This document shows, in pieces, positions 38,351-49,381 of a stretch of DNA of 64,000 nt. The translations under genes and the position numbers were made by a program. The stretch covers positions 148,678,001-148,742,000 of the forward strand of contig NC_086097.1 of assembly GCF_963921235.1 (NCBI RefSeq), written 5' to 3'. Origin of the DNA: Mobula hypostoma (Eukaryota). The first letter of the stretch is position 1. Each line of letters starts with the position of its first letter. A model generated the notes under the pieces. It worked only from the letters and a program-made list of their open reading frames with translations. It ran no database searches and was not told where the DNA came from.

Positions 38351-38367
38351 CCATCTCATATGACTAC

Positions 38368-38587
38368 GCAAACAACAGGAATTCTGCAGATGCTGGAAAT
38401 TCAAGCAACACACATCAAAGTTGCTGGTGAACGCAGCAGGCCAGGCAGCATCTCTAGAAAGAGGTACAGTCGACGTTTCAGGCCGAGACCCTCGTCAGAA
38501 GGGTCTCGGCCTGAAACGTCAACTGCACCTCTTCCTAGAGATGCTGCCTGGCCTGCTGCGTTCACCAGCAACTTTAATGTGTGTTGC
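38368..38587. mobile_element. Young PLE-end fold-back mini-element (88-bp inverted arms)
   Basis: Arms 38405-38492 and 38500-38587; unpaired ~34-nt extension on the left; TSD CATC(T/C)CATATGACTAC at 38352-38367 and 38587-38602. Confidence 0.92.
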
Positions 38588-38719
38588 ATCCCATATGACT
38601 ACTTCATTTTTCCCCTCTCACTCCACTTGAATACCCCTGCTGCTCTGGATAGTTTGCGCATTCTTCCTCCTGGTTCCAGCCTCATCTAAAAAGGGAGCAA
38701 GAATGTCCATTGGACAAGT

Positions 38720-40062: not shown

Positions 40063-42337
40063 TCAAGGAGTCGGCAGTCAATGAGTATGCCTCAGCTGTC
40101 ACGGACTTTATCTGGAAATGCACAGAGGACTGTGTGTCTCGCAAGATGATCCGGGTATTCCCTAACCAGAAACTTTGGATGAATTATGAGGTCAAGTCCC
40201 TTTTGAAGGCTAGAGCTGAGGCTTTTAGGTCCAGGGATACCAGTCGCTACACGGAATCCAAGCGTGAACTCCGGAAAGCCATTAAGGGCGCCAAGAGGCA
40301 ATATCGAGCCAAGTTGGAAGCCCAGGCTAACTAGAGGGATGCCGGTAGACTATGGCAGGGTCTAAGTGAGATCACTGGGCGCAAAGAAAAGGCTGGGAAT
40401 ATCAATAACGGTGGCACTTCTCTTCCTGACGAACTTAACGTATTCTATGCAAGATTCGAACAGAAGAGGAGCGTCCCACTCCCTCCGAATGAACCAGACC
40501 TGGTGGCATTGAGATTCATTGTCACCGAGGAGGACATTAGAAGGGCCTTCCTGAAGATAAATCCAAGAAAGGTGATGGGCCCAGCTGGCGTCCCAGGATG
40601 GGTGCTCCGGGCCTGTGCAAGCGAGCTAGCTGGAGTGTTTGCTGACATCTTCAACTGCTCCTTGCTTCAGTCTAAGACCCCTCCTGTTTTAAGAAGGCAA
40701 CGATAATCCCGGTGCTGAAGAAGAGCAAGGTGGCATGCCTGAATGACTATCGACCTGTGGCTCTGACATCAATTGCTATGAAGTGCTTCAAGCAATTGGT
40801 TATGGCACACATCAACCACAGCCTACCGGTCAACCTCGACGCTTTGCAATTCGCCTACCAGAGCAACAGGTCAACGGCAGATGCCATCTCTCTGGCCCTA
40901 CATTCCTCCTTGAAACACCTGGAGAATAAAGACGCATATGTAAGGCTCCTTTTCATTGACTACAGCTCTGCCTTCAATACCATCATTCCAAATAAACCGA
41001 TTCTTAAGCTCCAGAACCTGGGCATTAGCACTCAGATCTACAGCTGGATCTTCAACTTCCTTACAGACAGGACCCAGGCTGTAAAAATAGGGGACAAGCT
41101 CTCCTCTACAATCATTCTGAGCACCAGTGCCCCACAAGGCTGTGTACTCAGCCCCCTGCTGTACTCACTGTACACCTATGATTGTGTAGCCAAGTTTCCA
41201 TCAAACTCAATATACAAGTTTGCTGATGACACCACAATTGTAGGCTGTATCTCGGGTAATGATGAGTTTGAGTACAGAGATGAAATTAAGAACCTGGTGG
41301 CATGGTGCAAAGACAATAACCTATCCCTCAATGTCAGCAAGACAAAGGAATTGGTTGTTGACTTCAGAAGGAGTAGCGGACTGCACAACCCCATTTACAT
41401 CGCTGGTGCGCAAGTGGAACAGGTCAAAAGCTTTAAGTTCCTCAGGGTCAATATCACAAATGACCTGACTTGGTCCAAGCAAGCAGAGTCCACTGTCAAG
41501 AAGGCCCACCAGCGCCTTTACTTCCTGAGAAAGCTAAAGAAATTTGGCTTGTCCCCTAAAACCCTCATTAATTTTTATAGATGCACTGTAGAAAGCATTC
41601 TTCTAGGGTGTATCACAACCTGGTATGGAAGTTGTCCTGTCCAAGATCGGAAGAAGCTGCAGAAGATTATGAACACAGCCCAGAACATCACACAAACCAA
41701 TCTTCTGTCCTTGGAGCAACACACATCAAAGTTGCTGGTGAACGCTGCAGGCCAGGCAGCAACTCTAGGAAGAGGTACAGTCGATGTTTCAGGCCGAGAC
41801 CCTTCGAGACTGATGAAGGGTCTCGGACTGAAACGTCGACTGTACCTCTTCCTAGAGATGCTGCCTGGCCTGCAGCGTTCACCAGCAACTTTGATGTGTG
41901 TTGCTTGAATTTCCAGCATCTACAGAATTCCTGTTGTTTCCGTCCTTGGACTCACTTTACACCGCACGCGGTCGGAGCAGTGCTACCAGGATAATCAAGG
42001 ACACGACCCACCCAGCCAACACACTTTTCGTTCCTCTTCCCTCCAGGAGAAGGCTCAGGAGCTTGAAGACTCATACGGCCAGATTTGGGAACAGCTTCTT
42101 TCCAACTGTGATAAGACTGCTGAACAGATCCTGACCCAGATCTGGGCCGTACCTTCCAAATATCCGGGCCTGCCTCTCGGTTTTTTTGCACTACCTTACT
42201 TTCCCTTTTCTATTTTCTATTTATGATTTATAATTTAAATTTTTAATATTTACTATCGATTTGTACTCCAGGGAGCGCGAAGCGCAGAATCAAATATCGC
42301 TGTGATGATTGTTTGATGACAATAAAGTAAAGTAAAG
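40063..42337 (+). mobile_element. Rex1/Babar LINE, 5'-truncated, well-preserved RT, interrupted at 41716-41939
   Basis: [64 protein letters not shown]; aataaagtaaagtaaag tail. Confidence 0.93.
41716..41939. mobile_element. Young PLE-end fold-back mini-element (90-bp inverted arms) inserted in the Rex1 RT
   Basis: Arms 41716-41805 and 41815-41904; ~34-nt extension on the right; TSD TTC(T/C)GTCCTTGGA at 41703-41715 and 41938-41950. Confidence 0.92.
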
Positions 42338-42986
42338 GTTTTGGAATAAGTGGTTGTTTAAATTGAGCAACATATAAAATGCAGGAGGAACACAGCAGGT
42401 CAGGCAGCATCTACAGAAATGAGTAAGTCGATGTTTCAGGCCAAGGCTGTTCATTGAGACTGGAAAGGAAGGGGGAAGATGTCAGAATAAGAGGGGAGGG
42501 GGAGGAGGACAAACTAGAAGGTGATAGGTGAAGCCAGGTGGGCGGGAGAGGGGGAATGAAGTAAGAAGCTGAAAGGTGGTAGGTGGAAAAAGTAAAGGGC
42601 TGGAGAAAAAGAAATCTGATAGGAGAAGAGAGTGGACCAAGGGAGAAAGAGAAGGAGGCAGGGCATCAGGAGGAACTGATAGGCAGGTGAGGAGAAGAAG
42701 AAAAAGGCCAGAGTGGGGAATTGAAGAAGAGGGATGGGGGAGGGAGAACAAATTACCAGAAGTTGGAGAAATCGATGTATGTCATTAGGCTGGAGGCTAC
42801 CTAGATGGAATATGAGATGTTGCTTCTCCAACCTCAGAGTGGCCTTGTCATGTCAGAAAAAGAGGCCATGCACTGACACGTCAGAATGGGAACAACAGGA
42901 ATTCTGCAGATGCTGGAAATTCAAGCAACACACATCAAAGTTGCTGGTGAACGCAACAGGCCAAGCAGCATCTATAGGAAGAGGCG

Positions 42987-43024
42987 CAGTCGACGTTTCA
43001 GGCCGAGACCCTTCGTCAGGACTA
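42987..43024 (-). ncRNA. Minimal type I hammerhead ribozyme
   Basis: Same sequence as 4403-4440. Confidence 0.85.
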
Positions 43025-43748
43025 ACTGAAGGAAGAGTGAGTAAGGGATTTGAAAGCTGGAGGGGGAGGGGAAGATGCAAAATGATAGGAGAAGACAGGA
43101 GGGGGAGGGATAGAGCCGAGAGCTGGACAGGTGATAGGCAAAAGGGGATACGAGAGGATCATGGGACAGGAGGTCCGGGAAGAAAGACGGGGGGGGGGGG
43201 TGACCCAGAGGATGGGCAGACTGGGAGACCGCTTTGCTGAACATCTACGCTCTGTCCGCCAGAGAAAGCAGGATCTCCCAGTGGCCACACATTTTAATTC
43301 CACATCCCATTCCCATTCTGACATGTCTATCCACGGCCTCCTCTACTGTAAAGATGAAGCCACACTCAGGTTGGAGGAACAACACCTTATATTCCGTCTG
43401 GGTAGCCTCCAACCTGATGGCATGAACATTGACTTCTCTAACTTCCGCTAGGCCCCACCTCCCCCTCGTACCCCATCTGTTACTCATTTTTATGCACACA
43501 TTCTTTCTCTCACTCTCCTTTTTCTCCCTCTGTCCCTCTGAATATACCTCTTGCCCATCCTCTGGGTCACCCTCCCCCCGCCCCGTCTTTCTTCCCGGAC
43601 CTCCTGTCCCATGATCCTCTCGTATCCCCTTTTGCCTATCACCTGTCCAGCTCTCGGCTCTATCCCTCCCCCTCCTGTCTTCTCCTATCATTTTGCATCT
43701 CCCCCTCCCCCTCCAGCTTTCAAATCCCTTACTCACTCTTCCTTCAGT

Positions 43749-43786
43749 TAGTCCTGACGAAGGGTCTCGGCCTGAAACGTCGACTG
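43749..43786 (+). ncRNA. Minimal type I hammerhead ribozyme
   Basis: TAGTCCTGACGAAGGGTCTCGGCCTGAAACGTCGACTG. Confidence 0.85.
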
Positions 43787-44711
43787 CGCCTCTTCCTATA
43801 GATGCTGCCTGGCCTGCTGCGTTCACCAGCAACTTTGATGTGTGTTGTCAGAATGGGAGCAGGATTAGGAATTAGAATGATTGGCCACTGGGAAATCCTG
43901 CTTTTGTAGATGGAGTGGAGACGCTTGTTTAGTGGGAGGTTTACACAGGTTTAATTTTTTGTTGCAACCACATATAATATGAAATAAAACAATGAAGAAT
44001 TTGTACATCAATAAACAAGGTCTCAAAAATCCTTGTTTTAATTACATAATAACTGATAGTTAATGTGTTACCTTGTTTTGTTCTATCAAGATACAGATCT
44101 ATTATCGAGGGGAATACTTATCTGAGCTCACCATGGATCTACACTGAGGCAAAATTTCGGTTGTGGGGTAATTTATTCAATTTTATTGACTGACCTGCTG
44201 GTGATGGACCACATGTGAAAGAAGTCAGAGAGACAGCCATTTGATTCCTGAAGATAGAAGTGACATCAATTATCGGAAAAATCCATGTTCACAGTCAATT
44301 GTAATAATGTGCAGAAGGAAAGATATAGAACATCAAGGTAATGTATTAACTGATTTATATAAGTATTAGTTTATATCAATGCTAGGCTTACCAAAAGTAA
44401 ATAATAGTAACCCCTTTATAGCCATGGGCAAAACAAGTTTGCATTTATCACTCACAATGAACGATTATACTGTAAGTAAGGTGAACTTTGATTTTGACTG
44501 TCACTCTCTATTTGAGGTATGCTGAGGAACTAAAGACCTTAATAATGTAGATCTGCAATTGCACCCTTGCTACTAAAAGACACATTAGGACATGTTTGAT
44601 AATTATTATATCGTTCAGTTGGAGAGGTCTTATTATTATTTCAGCACTCAGATATGATTTGATATTGCACACAGAACATAAGGCTATAATTGTATTTATG
44701 TATGAATGTAA

Positions 44712-45386: not shown

Positions 45387-45671
45387 TGTAGCGGTGTGCT
45401 ACACACAGCACTAGAATAACCACACGGAGTTGGTGAGTTGGAGTTGCGATGAAAGAGATTTATTCAAACTTCGCAGCCTGCTTTAAAGCCTTCCTGTTCC
45501 CGCCCTCCCTGGACGGAACTACTGTGAGGAATGCATATTCCCAGACCCCTTCCGTGCGCGGGATTTTCCCCCTGCTGGTGAAGATGGCCTGGCGCCCTTT
45601 TTGGGGCCGGCCCTCTGCCTGCGCGCGCCGTTGTGAGCCGGTTCGTGGGTGCCAGAAAGTGGGTCGCCACA
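45387..45671 (-). repeat. Gypsy 3' LTR
   Basis: Minus strand TGTGGCG...CGCTACA; AATAAA near 45459-45464; preceded on the minus strand by PPT GGGGGGGGTTTA (45672-45683). Confidence 0.95.
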
Positions 45672-48600
45672 TAAACCCCCCCCAGAACCGGCGATACCTC
45701 CCCCCAATGTCCACAGTCTGGATCGGCCTCGGTTTGGGAGGTCTGCCCCTGCGCCGCGGTGCCTGAGCCTGGACCGGCTGCGCCAAGTCCACATGGGCCA
45801 GTTTGAGTCGGTCCACCGTGAAAACCTCCTCTCTCCCCCCAATGTCCAGCACGAACGTGGACCCATTGTTCCTGATCACCTTGAACGGCCCCTCGTAGGG
45901 CCGCTGTAGCGGTGCCTGGTGTCCGCCCCGTCGTACAAAAAGAAACTTACAGTTCTGCAGGTCTTTGGGTACGCAGGTCGGGCTCTGTCCGTGCTGTGAA
46001 GTGGGTATGGGGGCCAGGTTACCGAGCCTCTCCCGTAGTCTGTCCAGGACTGCTGTGGGTTCTTCCTCTTGCCCCCTTGGGGCTGGTATGAACTCTCCTG
46101 GGACGACCAGGGGTGCGCCATACACCAACTCGGCCGACGAGGTGTGCAGATCCTCTTTGGGCGCCGTGCGGATTCCGAGCAGGACCCAGGGAAGCTCGTC
46201 CACCCAGTTAGGCCCCTCCAGGCGGGCCATGAGAGCCGACTTCAGGTGAGGGTGGAAACGCTCTACTAGTCCGTTCGACTGTGGGTGGTAGGCAGTTGTG
46301 TAGTGTAGCTGCGATCCTAAAAGGCTGGCCATAGCCGACCACAGGCTGGAGGTGAACTAGGCGCCCCTGTCGGAGGTAATGTGGGCCGGTACCCCAAAGC
46401 GTGCTACCCAGGTTGCGATCAGTGCTCGGGCACAGGATTCAGAGGTGGTGTCGGTGAGCGGGACTGCCTCTGGCCATCTGGTGAACCGGTCTATCATAGT
46501 TAGGAGGTACCGCGCTCCTCGTGACACTGGCAGGGGCCCCACGATATCCACATGAATGTGGTCGAACCTCCGGCGGGTGGGTTCGAACTGCTGCGGCGGA
46601 GCCTTGGTGTGCCGCTGCACCTTGGCCGTTTGGCACTGCATACACGTTTTGGCCCATTCACTGACCTGTTTACGAAGTCCATGCCACACGAACCTGTTGG
46701 CGACCAGCCGGACGGTTGTCCTGATGGAGGGGTGTGCTAAGTTATGAATGGACTCGAAAACCCGCCGGCGCCAGGCTGCTGGGACAACGGGGCGGGGTTG
46801 GCCGGTAGCTACGTCACATAGTAGGGTCCTCTCACCTGGGCCTACGGGGAGGTCTTGGAGCTGCAAACCGGAGACTGCAGTCCTATAACTGTGGATCTCA
46901 GCGTCTGCCTGCTGTGCCTCTGCCAGCGCTGCATAGTCCACCCCCTGGGACAGGGCCTGTATGGTAGGTCTGGAAAGTGCGTCCGCCACGACGTTGTTCT
47001 TTCCAGAGACATGCAGGATGTCTGTCGTGTACTCGCAGATGTAGGACAGATGTCGTTGGTGGTGGGACGACCAGGGGTCGGACACCTTACTGAACGCGAA
47101 GGTAAGTGGTTTGTGGTCTGTGAACGCGGTGAAGGGCCTACCTTCTAAGAAGTACCTGAAATGCCAGATTGCCAGGTATAGTGCCAATAGCTCCCGGTCG
47201 AAAGCACTGTATTTGAGTTCGGGTGGTCGTAGGTGTTTGCTGAAGAACGCCAGGGGTTGCCAGCGACCCTCGATGAGTTGTTCCAGCACTCCACCAACTG
47301 CTGTGTTGGATGCGTCCACCGTGAGGGCAGTAGGAACGTCCGTTCTGGGGTGCACTAGCATCGTGGCATTTGCCAAGGCTTCTTTGGTTTTAACGAAAGC
47401 GGCTGCAGCCTCTTCGTCCCAGGTAATGTCCTTGCCCTGACCCGACATTAGAGTGGACAGGGGGCGCATGGTTCGGGCTGCTGAGAAGAGGAAATGGTGG
47501 TAGAAATTCACCATACCCACGAATCCCTGCAGGCCTTTGATTGTGTTGGGTCGGGGGAAGTTGCGGACCGCGTCTACCTTGGCGGGCAGTGGGGTTGCCC
47601 CACCTTTAGTAATCCTGTGGCCCAGGAAGTCGATGGTATCGAGTCCGAACTGGCATTTGGCTGGGTTGATTGTAAGGCCGAATTTGCTCAGGTGGGAGTA
47701 GAGCTGGCGGAGGTGGGACAGATGCTCCTGCCGACTACTGCTGGCTATGAGGATGTCGTCCAAATAGATGAATGCAAAGTCCAGGTCGTGTCCCACCGCG
47801 TCCATTAGCCACTGGAAAGTCTGTGCGGCATTCTTTAGACCAAACGGCATTCGGAGGAATTTGAGAAGTCCGAACGGGGTGATGAGTGCTGTTTTGGGGA
47901 TGTCGTCCGGATGTATCCCCGGATGAGGTCTACCTTGGAAAAGATCCTTGCGCCGTGTAGGTTTGCTGCAAAGTCTTGAATGTGCGGCACAGGGTAGCGG
48001 TCTGGCGTTGTGGCCTCGTTCAGTCTGCGGTAGTCACCGCATGGTCTCTAGCCCCCCGTTGTCTTGGGCACCATGTGCAGGGGGGAGGCCCATGGACTGT
48101 CGTATGATCCCCAATTCCTCCATCTTCTTGAACTCCTCCTTTGCCAGTCGGAGCTTGTCCGGGGGAAGCCTTCGAGCACGGGCGTGGAAGTGTGGTCCCT
48201 GGGTCGGATGTGGTGCTGTACTCCGTGTCTGGGCATGGCTGCCGTGAACTGCGGCGTCAGTACTGATGGGAAATCTGCCAGGACCCTGATGAATTCATCG
48301 TTGGACAGCGTGATGGAGTCCAGGTGTGGGGCTGGCAACTTGGCTTCACCCAGGGAGAACGTTTGAAAAGTCTTGGCGTGGACTAGTCGCTTCCCTTGCA
48401 GGTCGACCAGCAGGCTGTGGGCTTGCAGAAAATCCGCCCCCAGGAGTGGTTGGGCCACGGCGGCCAGTGTGAAGTTCCACGTGAACCAACTGGAGCAGAA
48501 CTGTAGCCGCACAGTGTGGGTGCCGTAGGTTCGTATTGTGCTGCCATTTGCGGCCCTCAGGGTGGGTCCCGGTTCGCTGTTGCGGGTGTCGTAACTCATT

Positions 48601-48706
48601 GGAGGTAAAACACTGATCTCCACTCCGGTGTCGACCAAAAATCAGCGACCCGACTGCTTGCCCCAGATGTACAGGAGGCTGTCCTGATGGCCAGCCGCCG
48701 TAGCCA
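45672..48706 (-). pseudogene. pol: Gypsy pol (protease, RT, RNase H, integrase) with frameshifts, deletions and an in-frame stop at 46357
   Basis: [86 protein letters not shown]. Confidence 0.95.
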
Positions 48707-49381
48707 TCAGCGGCGGCTGGCCCTGGCATTTCCCGGGAATTTGCAGGGTGGTCTACAGCGGCGGGCCTCTGTGCCCCACCGCTGGTGGTAGAAGCACCAT
48801 TGTTCATTGGGCTCTGCTGCCAGGCCTGGTCTGGTCTGTCGTTGGGCACGCGGCTTGGTGATCTGTGCGACGGACGCCCCTCTCTCCTTCTTGGCATTCC
48901 ACAGCACATCTGCTCGGGCCGCCACCTCCCGGGGGTCGCTGAAATCTGCGTCAGACAGCAGCAGGCGTATGTCCTCGGGCAGTTGCTCTAGGAACGCCTG
49001 CTCAAACATGAGGCAGGGTTTGTGTCCTTCAGCCAGGGCCAGCATTTCGTTCATTAATGCTGACGGCGGCCTGTCTCCCAAACCATCCAGGTGCATTAAG
49101 CGGCGTGCTCATTCGCACTGTGAGAGTCCAAAAGTCCTTATGAGCAGGGCTTTGAATGCTGTGTATTTGCCGTCCTCCGGGGGCGACTGTATAAACTCCT
49201 CAACTTGTGCAGCAGTCTCTTGGTCGAGGGAGCTCAGCATGTAGTAGTAGCGAGTGGACTCCGAGGTTATCTGCCGAATGTGGAATTGTGCTTTTGCCTG
49301 TTCCAACCACAGACGGGATCTCAGCGGCCAAAAGCTTAGCAGTTGTAACGAAACTGCGTGAACAGATGCGGCGTCGGTCAT
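48707..49381 (-). pseudogene. gag: Gypsy gag, frameshifted
   Basis: AVSLQLLSFW...QAKAQFHIRQIT...YTAFKALLI; LGDRPPSALMNEM; CFYHQRWGTEARRCRPPC zinc motif. Confidence 0.85.

What the first reader, a model, noticed from the sequence alone, without database searches (positions are those of the whole stretch)
38352..38602. TSD-flanked ~220-bp fold-back element made only of two inverted PLE ends, turning inside the hammerhead ribozyme
Seen: 88-bp arms around a 7-nt loop, a 16-bp TSD with one mismatch, and no coding sequence. The tail-bearing arm starts at the CTGACGA core, and the other arm starts a few bases later at AAGGGTCTC. Established: PLEs often insert with an inverted partial terminal repeat and carry hammerheads; metazoan retrozymes are tandem direct repeats, not fold-backs. 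Inference: this is either a non-autonomous, MITE-like retroelement mobilised by the PLE, or a stereotyped abortive product whose breakpoint is set by the ribozyme fold.
Basis: partly seen in the sequence, partly recalled or inferred. Interest (0 to 1): 0.78.

Follow-up and report, generated by a model that had tools for sequence, protein, structure and literature searches.

The report
Twin-copied Penelope stub, not a MITE
This 219-base hairpin is one of thousands of head-to-head stubs of a Penelope-type jumping gene whose copies pile up at the front edge of its small ribozyme; each was likely built afresh from two DNA copies that ran off the end of a short RNA, so it is not a self-spreading element but a clue to how these elements are copied.

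Summary
Observation confirmed: 88-bp arms, 7-nt loop, 16-bp TSD, 37-nt one-sided tail. It is two inverted 3' ends of a GIY-YIG Penelope-like element (PLE).

Not a MITE. Its exact junction occurs once among 3,430 similar fold-backs. Two recurrent junctions (363 and 149 copies) carry the tail on either side about equally and span many haplotypes, so they are hotspots, not masters.

The hotspot is real: 47 of 190 tail-anchored copies end 128-140 nt from the tail, 11-16 times background, replicated in a second sample. That is the hammerhead's 5' edge; the cleavage site shows no excess in tail arms. When one arm runs past 200 nt, its partner never stops there (0/27 and 0/26, against 28/41 and 32/46). 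This points to a short RNA template whose 5' end lies there, likely primed twice. What makes that end is unresolved.

The architecture is published; my searches did not find the hotspot or the arm coupling in print. This scan has reported it before, in this window, this genome and others.

The parts
38352..38367 (+). left target-site duplication (16 bp)
38368..38404 (-). 37-nt PLE 'tail', present on this arm only (outer reverse-transcription start, inferred from PMC11167929)
   Evidence: inverted arms begin at tail positions 30-47 in 80 of 96 copies
38368..38498 (-). tail-bearing arm: last ~131 nt of the PLE, 5' end at C3 of the hammerhead core; one A deleted
38471..38498 (-). hammerhead core, stem II, GAAAC and GUC cleavage triplet (cut predicted between 38472 and 38471); 5' strand of stem I missing
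   Evidence: motif per PMC4209133
38493..38499 (.). head-to-head junction / 7-nt loop, 1-nt overlap (G 38498); sequence unique in the genome
38498..38587 (+). inverted, tail-less arm: PLE positions ~126 to ~38 (inner reverse-transcription start, inferred)
38587..38602 (+). right target-site duplication (one mismatch)

Best explanation
This is a single, likely dead-on-arrival insertion of a GIY-YIG Penelope-like retrotransposon, made of two short inverted copies of its 3' end; it was likely formed when both nicked target strands primed reverse transcription and both cDNAs ran off the 5' end of a short template RNA at the hammerhead's front edge. Shown: the arms are PLE ends; one carries the tail and the other starts ~37 nt inside it; a ~15-bp TSD flanks them; ends pile up at positions 128-140; the two arms of one insertion are coupled at that hotspot. 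Inferred: staggered double-strand cleavage, twin priming at the two start sites seen in vitro for the anole PLE, run-off at an RNA 5' end near 134-140, then end-joining of the two cDNA ends by 1-5 nt microhomology or small insertions. Least certain: what makes the RNA end. I favour 5'-to-3' trimming of the unstructured pyrimidine tract up to the folded or protein-bound hammerhead-tail domain over a transcription start or a splice-acceptor product.
For: The parent has an RT (PF00078, E 1.5e-5, below the curated cut-off) and a GIY-YIG domain, in a ~3.5-kb pLTR-ORF tandem at L123. TSD of 11 nt or more in 95 of 100 inverted copies. Hazard at 128-140 is 0.028/nt against 0.0018-0.0025; 26/888 nt in set 1 and 21/775 nt in set 2. 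Coupling: 0/27 vs 28/41 and 0/26 vs 32/46, Fisher p 3e-9 and 1e-9. The inverted arm is longer than the tail arm by more than 5 nt in 45 of 96 copies, by more than 50 nt in 22, so it cannot be copied from the first cDNA. Arms agree at diagnostic sites within a copy 227/237 vs 60% between copies; L184 has arms of two haplotypes. Junctions: 36 with microhomology, 11 blunt, 49 with insertions, of 96. PMC11167929 shows both strands cleaved and extended, two internal start sites bounding the tail, product length set by the template 5' end, and HHR cleavage dispensable. RNA just 5' of the hotspot is predicted unstructured. PMC11331408 proposes a 5' ribozyme fold as an exonuclease barrier for R2 templates.
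Against: No RNA 5' end was observed. Among 24 template-jump events whose first pass reached 128, only 1 left from 128-140 (p 0.001 against the 31.5% stop rate); the rest left from 150 upward. If jump points mark free RNA 5' ends, the hotspot ends differ in kind. Only 1 of 10 copies that crossed the ORF stopped at the hotspot in the upstream pLTR (p 0.13), so the full-length template does not appear to start there. The cap-G test for a transcription start was inconclusive. The 128-140 window was chosen on set 1. Both samples come from contig C1 and from exact-match (young) tails. Coupling could also arise if a stalled RT triggers a cut of the shared RNA.
Confidence: 0.68

Rival explanations
1. 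The RT stalls or falls off at the 5' edge of the hammerhead on a long RNA (fold, bound protein or nascent-cDNA hairpin), and the two arms are coupled secondarily, for example because the RNA is cut or released once the first cDNA stalls.
For: The peak coincides with the 5' strand of stem I (132-135). A few junctions use the stem I complementarity itself (L088, 135 joined to 103). Jumps rarely leave from the hotspot (1 of 24), which is odd for an ordinary free RNA end.
Against: None of 27 and none of 26 arms stop there when the partner exceeds 200 nt. The nascent-cDNA hairpin at 128-140 is unremarkable (25th percentile) and the RNA ahead of the RT has predicted MFE near 0. Only 5 of 31 long pairs end within 30 nt of each other, so stalls elsewhere do not couple the arms.
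Confidence: 0.14
2. The fold-backs arise by self-priming (fold-back of the first cDNA, or of an antisense template as proposed in PMC3846280) or purely by microhomology joining at self-complementary hammerhead bases, with no special RNA end.
For: The two commonest junctions use GAC/GTC and AC/GT overlaps. Some junctions are perfect palindromes (L036, L051, L364); 21 of 96 pairs end within 5 nt of each other.
Against: Non-inverted copies show the same peak (19 of 82). The inverted arm often extends beyond the tail arm (45 of 96) and almost always lacks the tail. Microhomology explains which bases join, not why cDNAs end there.
Confidence: 0.09
3. A non-autonomous MITE-like fold-back master is mobilised in trans by the PLE.
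For: 3,430 short fold-backs; two junctions recur 363 and 149 times; non-autonomous PLE derivatives exist (PMC8557442; bioRxiv 10.64898/2026.07.22.740005).
Against: This junction is unique (2 more without the 1-nt deletion). In the recurrent classes the tail is left:right 14:15 and 17:12 (one unresolved in each 30), with 11 and 16 haplotypes. 61 classes among 64 short inverted copies.
Confidence: 0.04
4. Hammerhead self-cleavage creates the RNA end that sets the turn.
For: A few insertions have their longest end at 101-103 (4 of the 180 tabulated, e.g. solo L329 at exactly 103); inverted-arm ends at 100-107 are modestly raised (5 in 705 nt).
Against: Tail-arm ends at 101-106 are at background (2 in 1,007 nt); the main peak is ~30 nt upstream of the cut; this copy keeps the cut site in both arms; PMC11167929 found cleavage dispensable.
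Confidence: 0.03

Closest known systems
Inverted-pLTR insertions of endonuclease-bearing PLEs (Pen2a_Av, PMC3846280; schemes in PMC8557442; D. virilis Penelope, PMC2377424)
   Same: Head-to-head 5'-truncated copies, a one-sided 30-40 bp tail, TSD, minimal hammerhead in the pLTR.
   Different: Here both arms are ~90-130 nt with no ORF, one third of sampled copies (64 of 193) are of this size, and the ends are statistically clustered and coupled between arms; the passages read do not report that.
Anolis Poseidon (PAc) in vitro reaction (PMC11167929)
   Same: Both target strands cleaved and extended; two internal RT starts bounding the tail; needs ~172 nt of ORF-start RNA, close to the -143 to -204 jump landing sites seen here (16 of 25).
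   Different: Different PLE lineage; that work did not describe the joined inverted product or a genomic hotspot of 5' ends.
Opposite-strand dual minimal HHRs 100-700 bp apart in Schistosoma (PMC4209133)
   Same: Two hammerhead remnants on opposite strands, attributed to truncated PLEs.
   Different: Noted in one sentence without junction or TSD analysis; here the two motifs abut and both are incomplete.
Non-LTR (animal) retrozymes (bioRxiv 10.64898/2026.07.22.740005; abstract, introduction and first methods read)
   Same: Short, non-coding, PLE-pLTR-related, type I HHR.
   Different: Retrozymes are direct tandem repeats with a complete HHR in each unit; this is one inverted pair with no complete HHR and no sign of re-amplification.
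LINE-1 twin priming (recalled, not read here)
   Same: Two primed cDNAs from one event joined by microhomology, giving an inversion within a TSD.
   Different: In L1 the second primer anneals internally and the two parts barely overlap; here both starts are fixed near the 3' end, so the arms duplicate each other.

Membership tests
EN+ Penelope-like element insertion | parent encodes RT plus C-terminal GIY-YIG endonuclease | tested here: met
   (RT hit below the curated cut-off, E 1.5e-5; GIY-YIG above cut-off)
EN+ Penelope-like element insertion | pLTR with minimal hammerhead; partial tandem organisation | tested here: met
   L123 pLTR-ORF-pLTR; parent motif AGTC-CTGACGA-stem II-GAAAC-GTC-GACT
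EN+ Penelope-like element insertion | inverted 5'-truncated copy, one-sided 30-40 bp tail, TSD | tested here: met
Neptune clade of PLEs | [quoted passage not shown] | tested here: inconclusive
   a CxxxxCxxC stretch precedes the GIY-YIG domain, but it was not aligned to Neptune references
Neptune clade of PLEs | RT phylogenetic placement | not tested
   no tree built
MITE-like / non-autonomous master element | many copies with the same internal junction and orientation descending from a source | tested here: not met
MITE-like / non-autonomous master element | terminal inverted repeats at both ends, fixed length | tested here: not met
   37-nt tail on one side only; inner arm end varies 30-47 and beyond
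Non-LTR retrozyme | direct tandem units, each with a complete type I HHR | tested here: not met
   inverted pair; stem I 5' strand absent in both arms
Non-LTR retrozyme | circular RNA, self-cleavage in vivo | not testable with these tools
   no run on record as RNA

The most novel reading that the evidence does not exclude
PLE particles carry a discrete ~300-nt RNA, from the hammerhead's 5' edge to ~150-200 nt past the tail, in which the ribozyme works as a structural 5'-end shield rather than a cutter. A dimeric RT copies it onto both strands of the break at once. This short RNA, not the full-length transcript, accounts for a quarter to a third of insertions and seeds pLTR tandems by template jumping.
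Probability: 0.33. Interest if true: 0.72.

Novelty: new variant of a known kind. Interest (0 to 1): 0.42.

Why it matters
How PLEs form their inverted repeats and what their poorly cleaving hammerheads do are stated open questions (PMC8557442, PMC11167929). Thousands of young insertions here give a readout: ends cluster at the ribozyme's 5' edge, not at its cut, and the two arms are coupled. This yields a precise prediction (RNA 5' ends at 134-140, 3' ends ~150-200 nt past the tail) that can be tested by RACE and with the existing in vitro system. Practically, these palindromes should be annotated as PLE fragments, not as MITEs. The single copy in the finding is ordinary within its family.

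Tried and rejected
Rfam scan of the window: no hit.

Expression: no RNA holder listed. Four contig runs were laid on the pLTR-ORF junction; they cannot show RNA starts, and their loose ends at position ~135 match older families that diverge there, so I used none of it as evidence.

Transcription-start idea (initiator-like TCAGTT at 139; motif recalled): of the first 100 of 947 listed matches I counted 33 G, 34 A, 33 T before A139 (p 0.08 vs 25%). Of 30 loci read, 7 were internal point mutants; 11 of the 23 true ends had G, at least 5 of them templated by target or partner arm. Inconclusive.

Splice-acceptor idea (branch-like TACTCAC/TACTAAC, pyrimidine tract, AG|TCCTGA kept across families): no intron-less copy or appended exon was seen among 193 copies. 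A shoulder at 141-151 (14 of 190) is near the putative branch A but may reflect GAAGAG microhomology. Unproven.

cDNA-hairpin and RNA-structure stall: not supported by folding.

The 30 BLAST-ranked loci were not used for statistics because the query selects for its own shape.

Literature: 8 searches found no paper reporting the hotspot or the arm coupling. Subscription papers and all supplements were not seen.

Full report
Numbering: position 1 is the outer end of the tail in natural copy L096, counting toward the element's 5' end. The predicted hammerhead cut is at 103/104, core C3 at 131, stem I 5' strand at 132-135. Negative numbers lie past the tail, in the ORF-start region.

OBSERVATION. 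The TSD, the 88-nt arms and the 7-nt loop are as described. A 37-nt tail sits on the left arm only. The tail arm ends at C3 and the other arm starts at G8/A9, with one shared G. Neither arm has the 5' strand of stem I, and both strands are predicted to fold as one long hairpin, so the copy holds no working ribozyme. The window has a second fold-back at 41717-41939 with a different junction, a long inverted copy at 42891-43847 and a long copy from 4307.

PARENT. The arms are the 3' end of a PLE with RT and GIY-YIG domains. L123 shows the pLTR-ORF-pLTR tandem, unit about 3.5 kb. A Cys-rich linker suggests the Neptune clade; I did not test this by tree. The genome (3.48 Gb) has 22,338 exact matches to a 40-nt tail probe and 880 to an ORF-start probe.

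MASTER OR DE NOVO. A gapped probe finds 3,430 fold-backs turning within 30 nt of this point. This copy's junction occurs once, and twice more without the 1-nt deletion. Two junctions recur 363 and 149 times. In the first 30 loci of each, the tail lies left:right 14:15 and 17:12, one unresolved in each, on 11 and 16 haplotypes. Arms agree within a copy at 227 of 237 diagnostic sites, against 4,136 of 6,944 between copies. A master would fix orientation and haplotype. These are microhomology hotspots formed repeatedly.

HOTSPOT. I sampled copies by the tail alone: the first 100 matches on C1 and 100 matches with an arbitrary upstream trinucleotide, of which 7 duplicates were dropped, giving 193. 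Three that end before position 48 were left out of the hazard count. 47 of 190 tail arms end at 128-140: 0.028 per nt against 0.0018 (48-119 plus 201-600) or 0.0025 (48-119 only). The window was chosen on set 1 (26 in 888 nt) and held in set 2 (21 in 775 nt). It appears in solo copies (19 of 82) and in inverted arms (32 of 96). Tail-arm ends at the cut site are at background (2 in 1,007 nt); inverted-arm ends at 100-107 are slightly raised (5 in 705 nt). 64 of 193 copies are inverted elements of 300 bp or less, in 61 junction classes. Older families look similar: 17 of 40 arms with the core lack the upstream pyrimidine tract, by a crude filter that includes at least 4 young or borderline rows.

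COUPLING. If each cDNA stalled independently, about a third of arms reaching 128 would stop there whatever the partner did. Instead, 0 of 27 tail arms stop at 128-140 when the partner exceeds 200 nt, against 28 of 41 otherwise; the reverse is 0 of 26 against 32 of 46. The simplest reading is a class of short templates whose 5' end lies near 134-140, with a few bases trimmed at joining. The inverted arm starts at 30-47 in 80 of 96 copies and is longer than the tail arm by more than 5 nt in 45. That excludes copying from the first cDNA in those cases and fits the two start sites and double-strand extension shown for the anole element (PMC11167929).

AGAINST OR UNRESOLVED. Of 40 ORF-start loci examined (39 after dropping one that overlaps its neighbour, plus L071), 25 show a jump from an upstream stop to a site past the tail, 16 landing at -143 to -204. 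Only 1 of the 24 that reached 128 jumped from the hotspot. Only 1 of 10 copies that crossed the ORF stopped there on the second pass; L263, missed by that script, ends at 374. So the full-length template does not seem to begin at the hotspot, and hotspot ends differ from jump-prone ends. The cap-G test was inconclusive. No spliced copy was seen despite an acceptor-like motif at the same place, where D. virilis has an intron end (PMC4209133). Folding gives no stall structure, but shows that the hotspot is the boundary between the structured tail-hammerhead domain and an unstructured pyrimidine tract. That is why I favour nuclease trimming to a protected domain, by analogy with R2 templates (PMC11331408). 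This last step is inference only.

LITERATURE SEEN. PMC11167929: parts 1-2 of 4 (abstract, whole main text, start of methods). PMC4209133: parts 1-2 of 4 (results, discussion). PMC8557442, PMC2377424, PMC3846280, PMC11331408: passages only. bioRxiv 10.64898/2026.07.22.740005: part 1 of 5. No supplements were read; Fig. S2 of PMC11167929 maps genomic ends and could bear on novelty. The inverted, tailed, TSD-flanked architecture is published, and opposite-strand hammerhead pairs were noted in 2014. Eight searches found no report of the 5'-edge hotspot or the coupling.

EARLIER SCAN NOTES. I looked these up by sequence (nothing), by words and by place; the last two came after my own hotspot and coupling tests. 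Several agents reached the same reading here and in other genomes; I do not count that as independent evidence.

VERDICT. A real feature and an ordinary member of a very large class of de novo PLE stubs; not a MITE. The class-level hotspot and coupling are a solid, testable clue to PLE mechanism. New variant of a known kind; interest 0.42.

Noticed in passing
L259-L288, L389-L398: Many copies jump from an upstream stop to a site ~140-200 nt past the tail and copy the tail and hammerhead again, building short direct tandems. First- and second-pass ends often nearly coincide (258/248, 150/143, 151/144, 178/178), and L278 repeats the same junction twice, suggesting one RNA fragment or a circle as template.
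   Followed up: partly
L270 and L272 (C1, ~1 Mb apart): Two insertions share the same complex multi-junction structure at 96% over 622 bp with unrelated flanks: a possible small re-amplified derivative.
   Followed up: no
L184: The two arms of one fold-back carry different haplotypes at three diagnostic sites, implying two RNA templates in one insertion.
   Followed up: no
window 43728-43753 (+) and homologues: Branch-point-like TACTCAC/TACTAAC, pyrimidine tract and AG directly before the hammerhead are kept across divergent PLE families of this genome; these may act as splice acceptors when inserted in host introns.
   Followed up: partly
window 41717-41939: Second fold-back with a different junction, inserted with a TSD into a LINE reverse-transcriptase ORF.
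   Followed up: partly
window 42891-43847: Long inverted PLE insertion (arms ~330 and ~630 nt) with a TSD, turning far from the hammerhead.
   Followed up: partly
window 45460-49244: Ty3/gypsy-like pol frames (protease, RT, integrase by eye) on the minus strand, broken into several ORFs.
   Followed up: no
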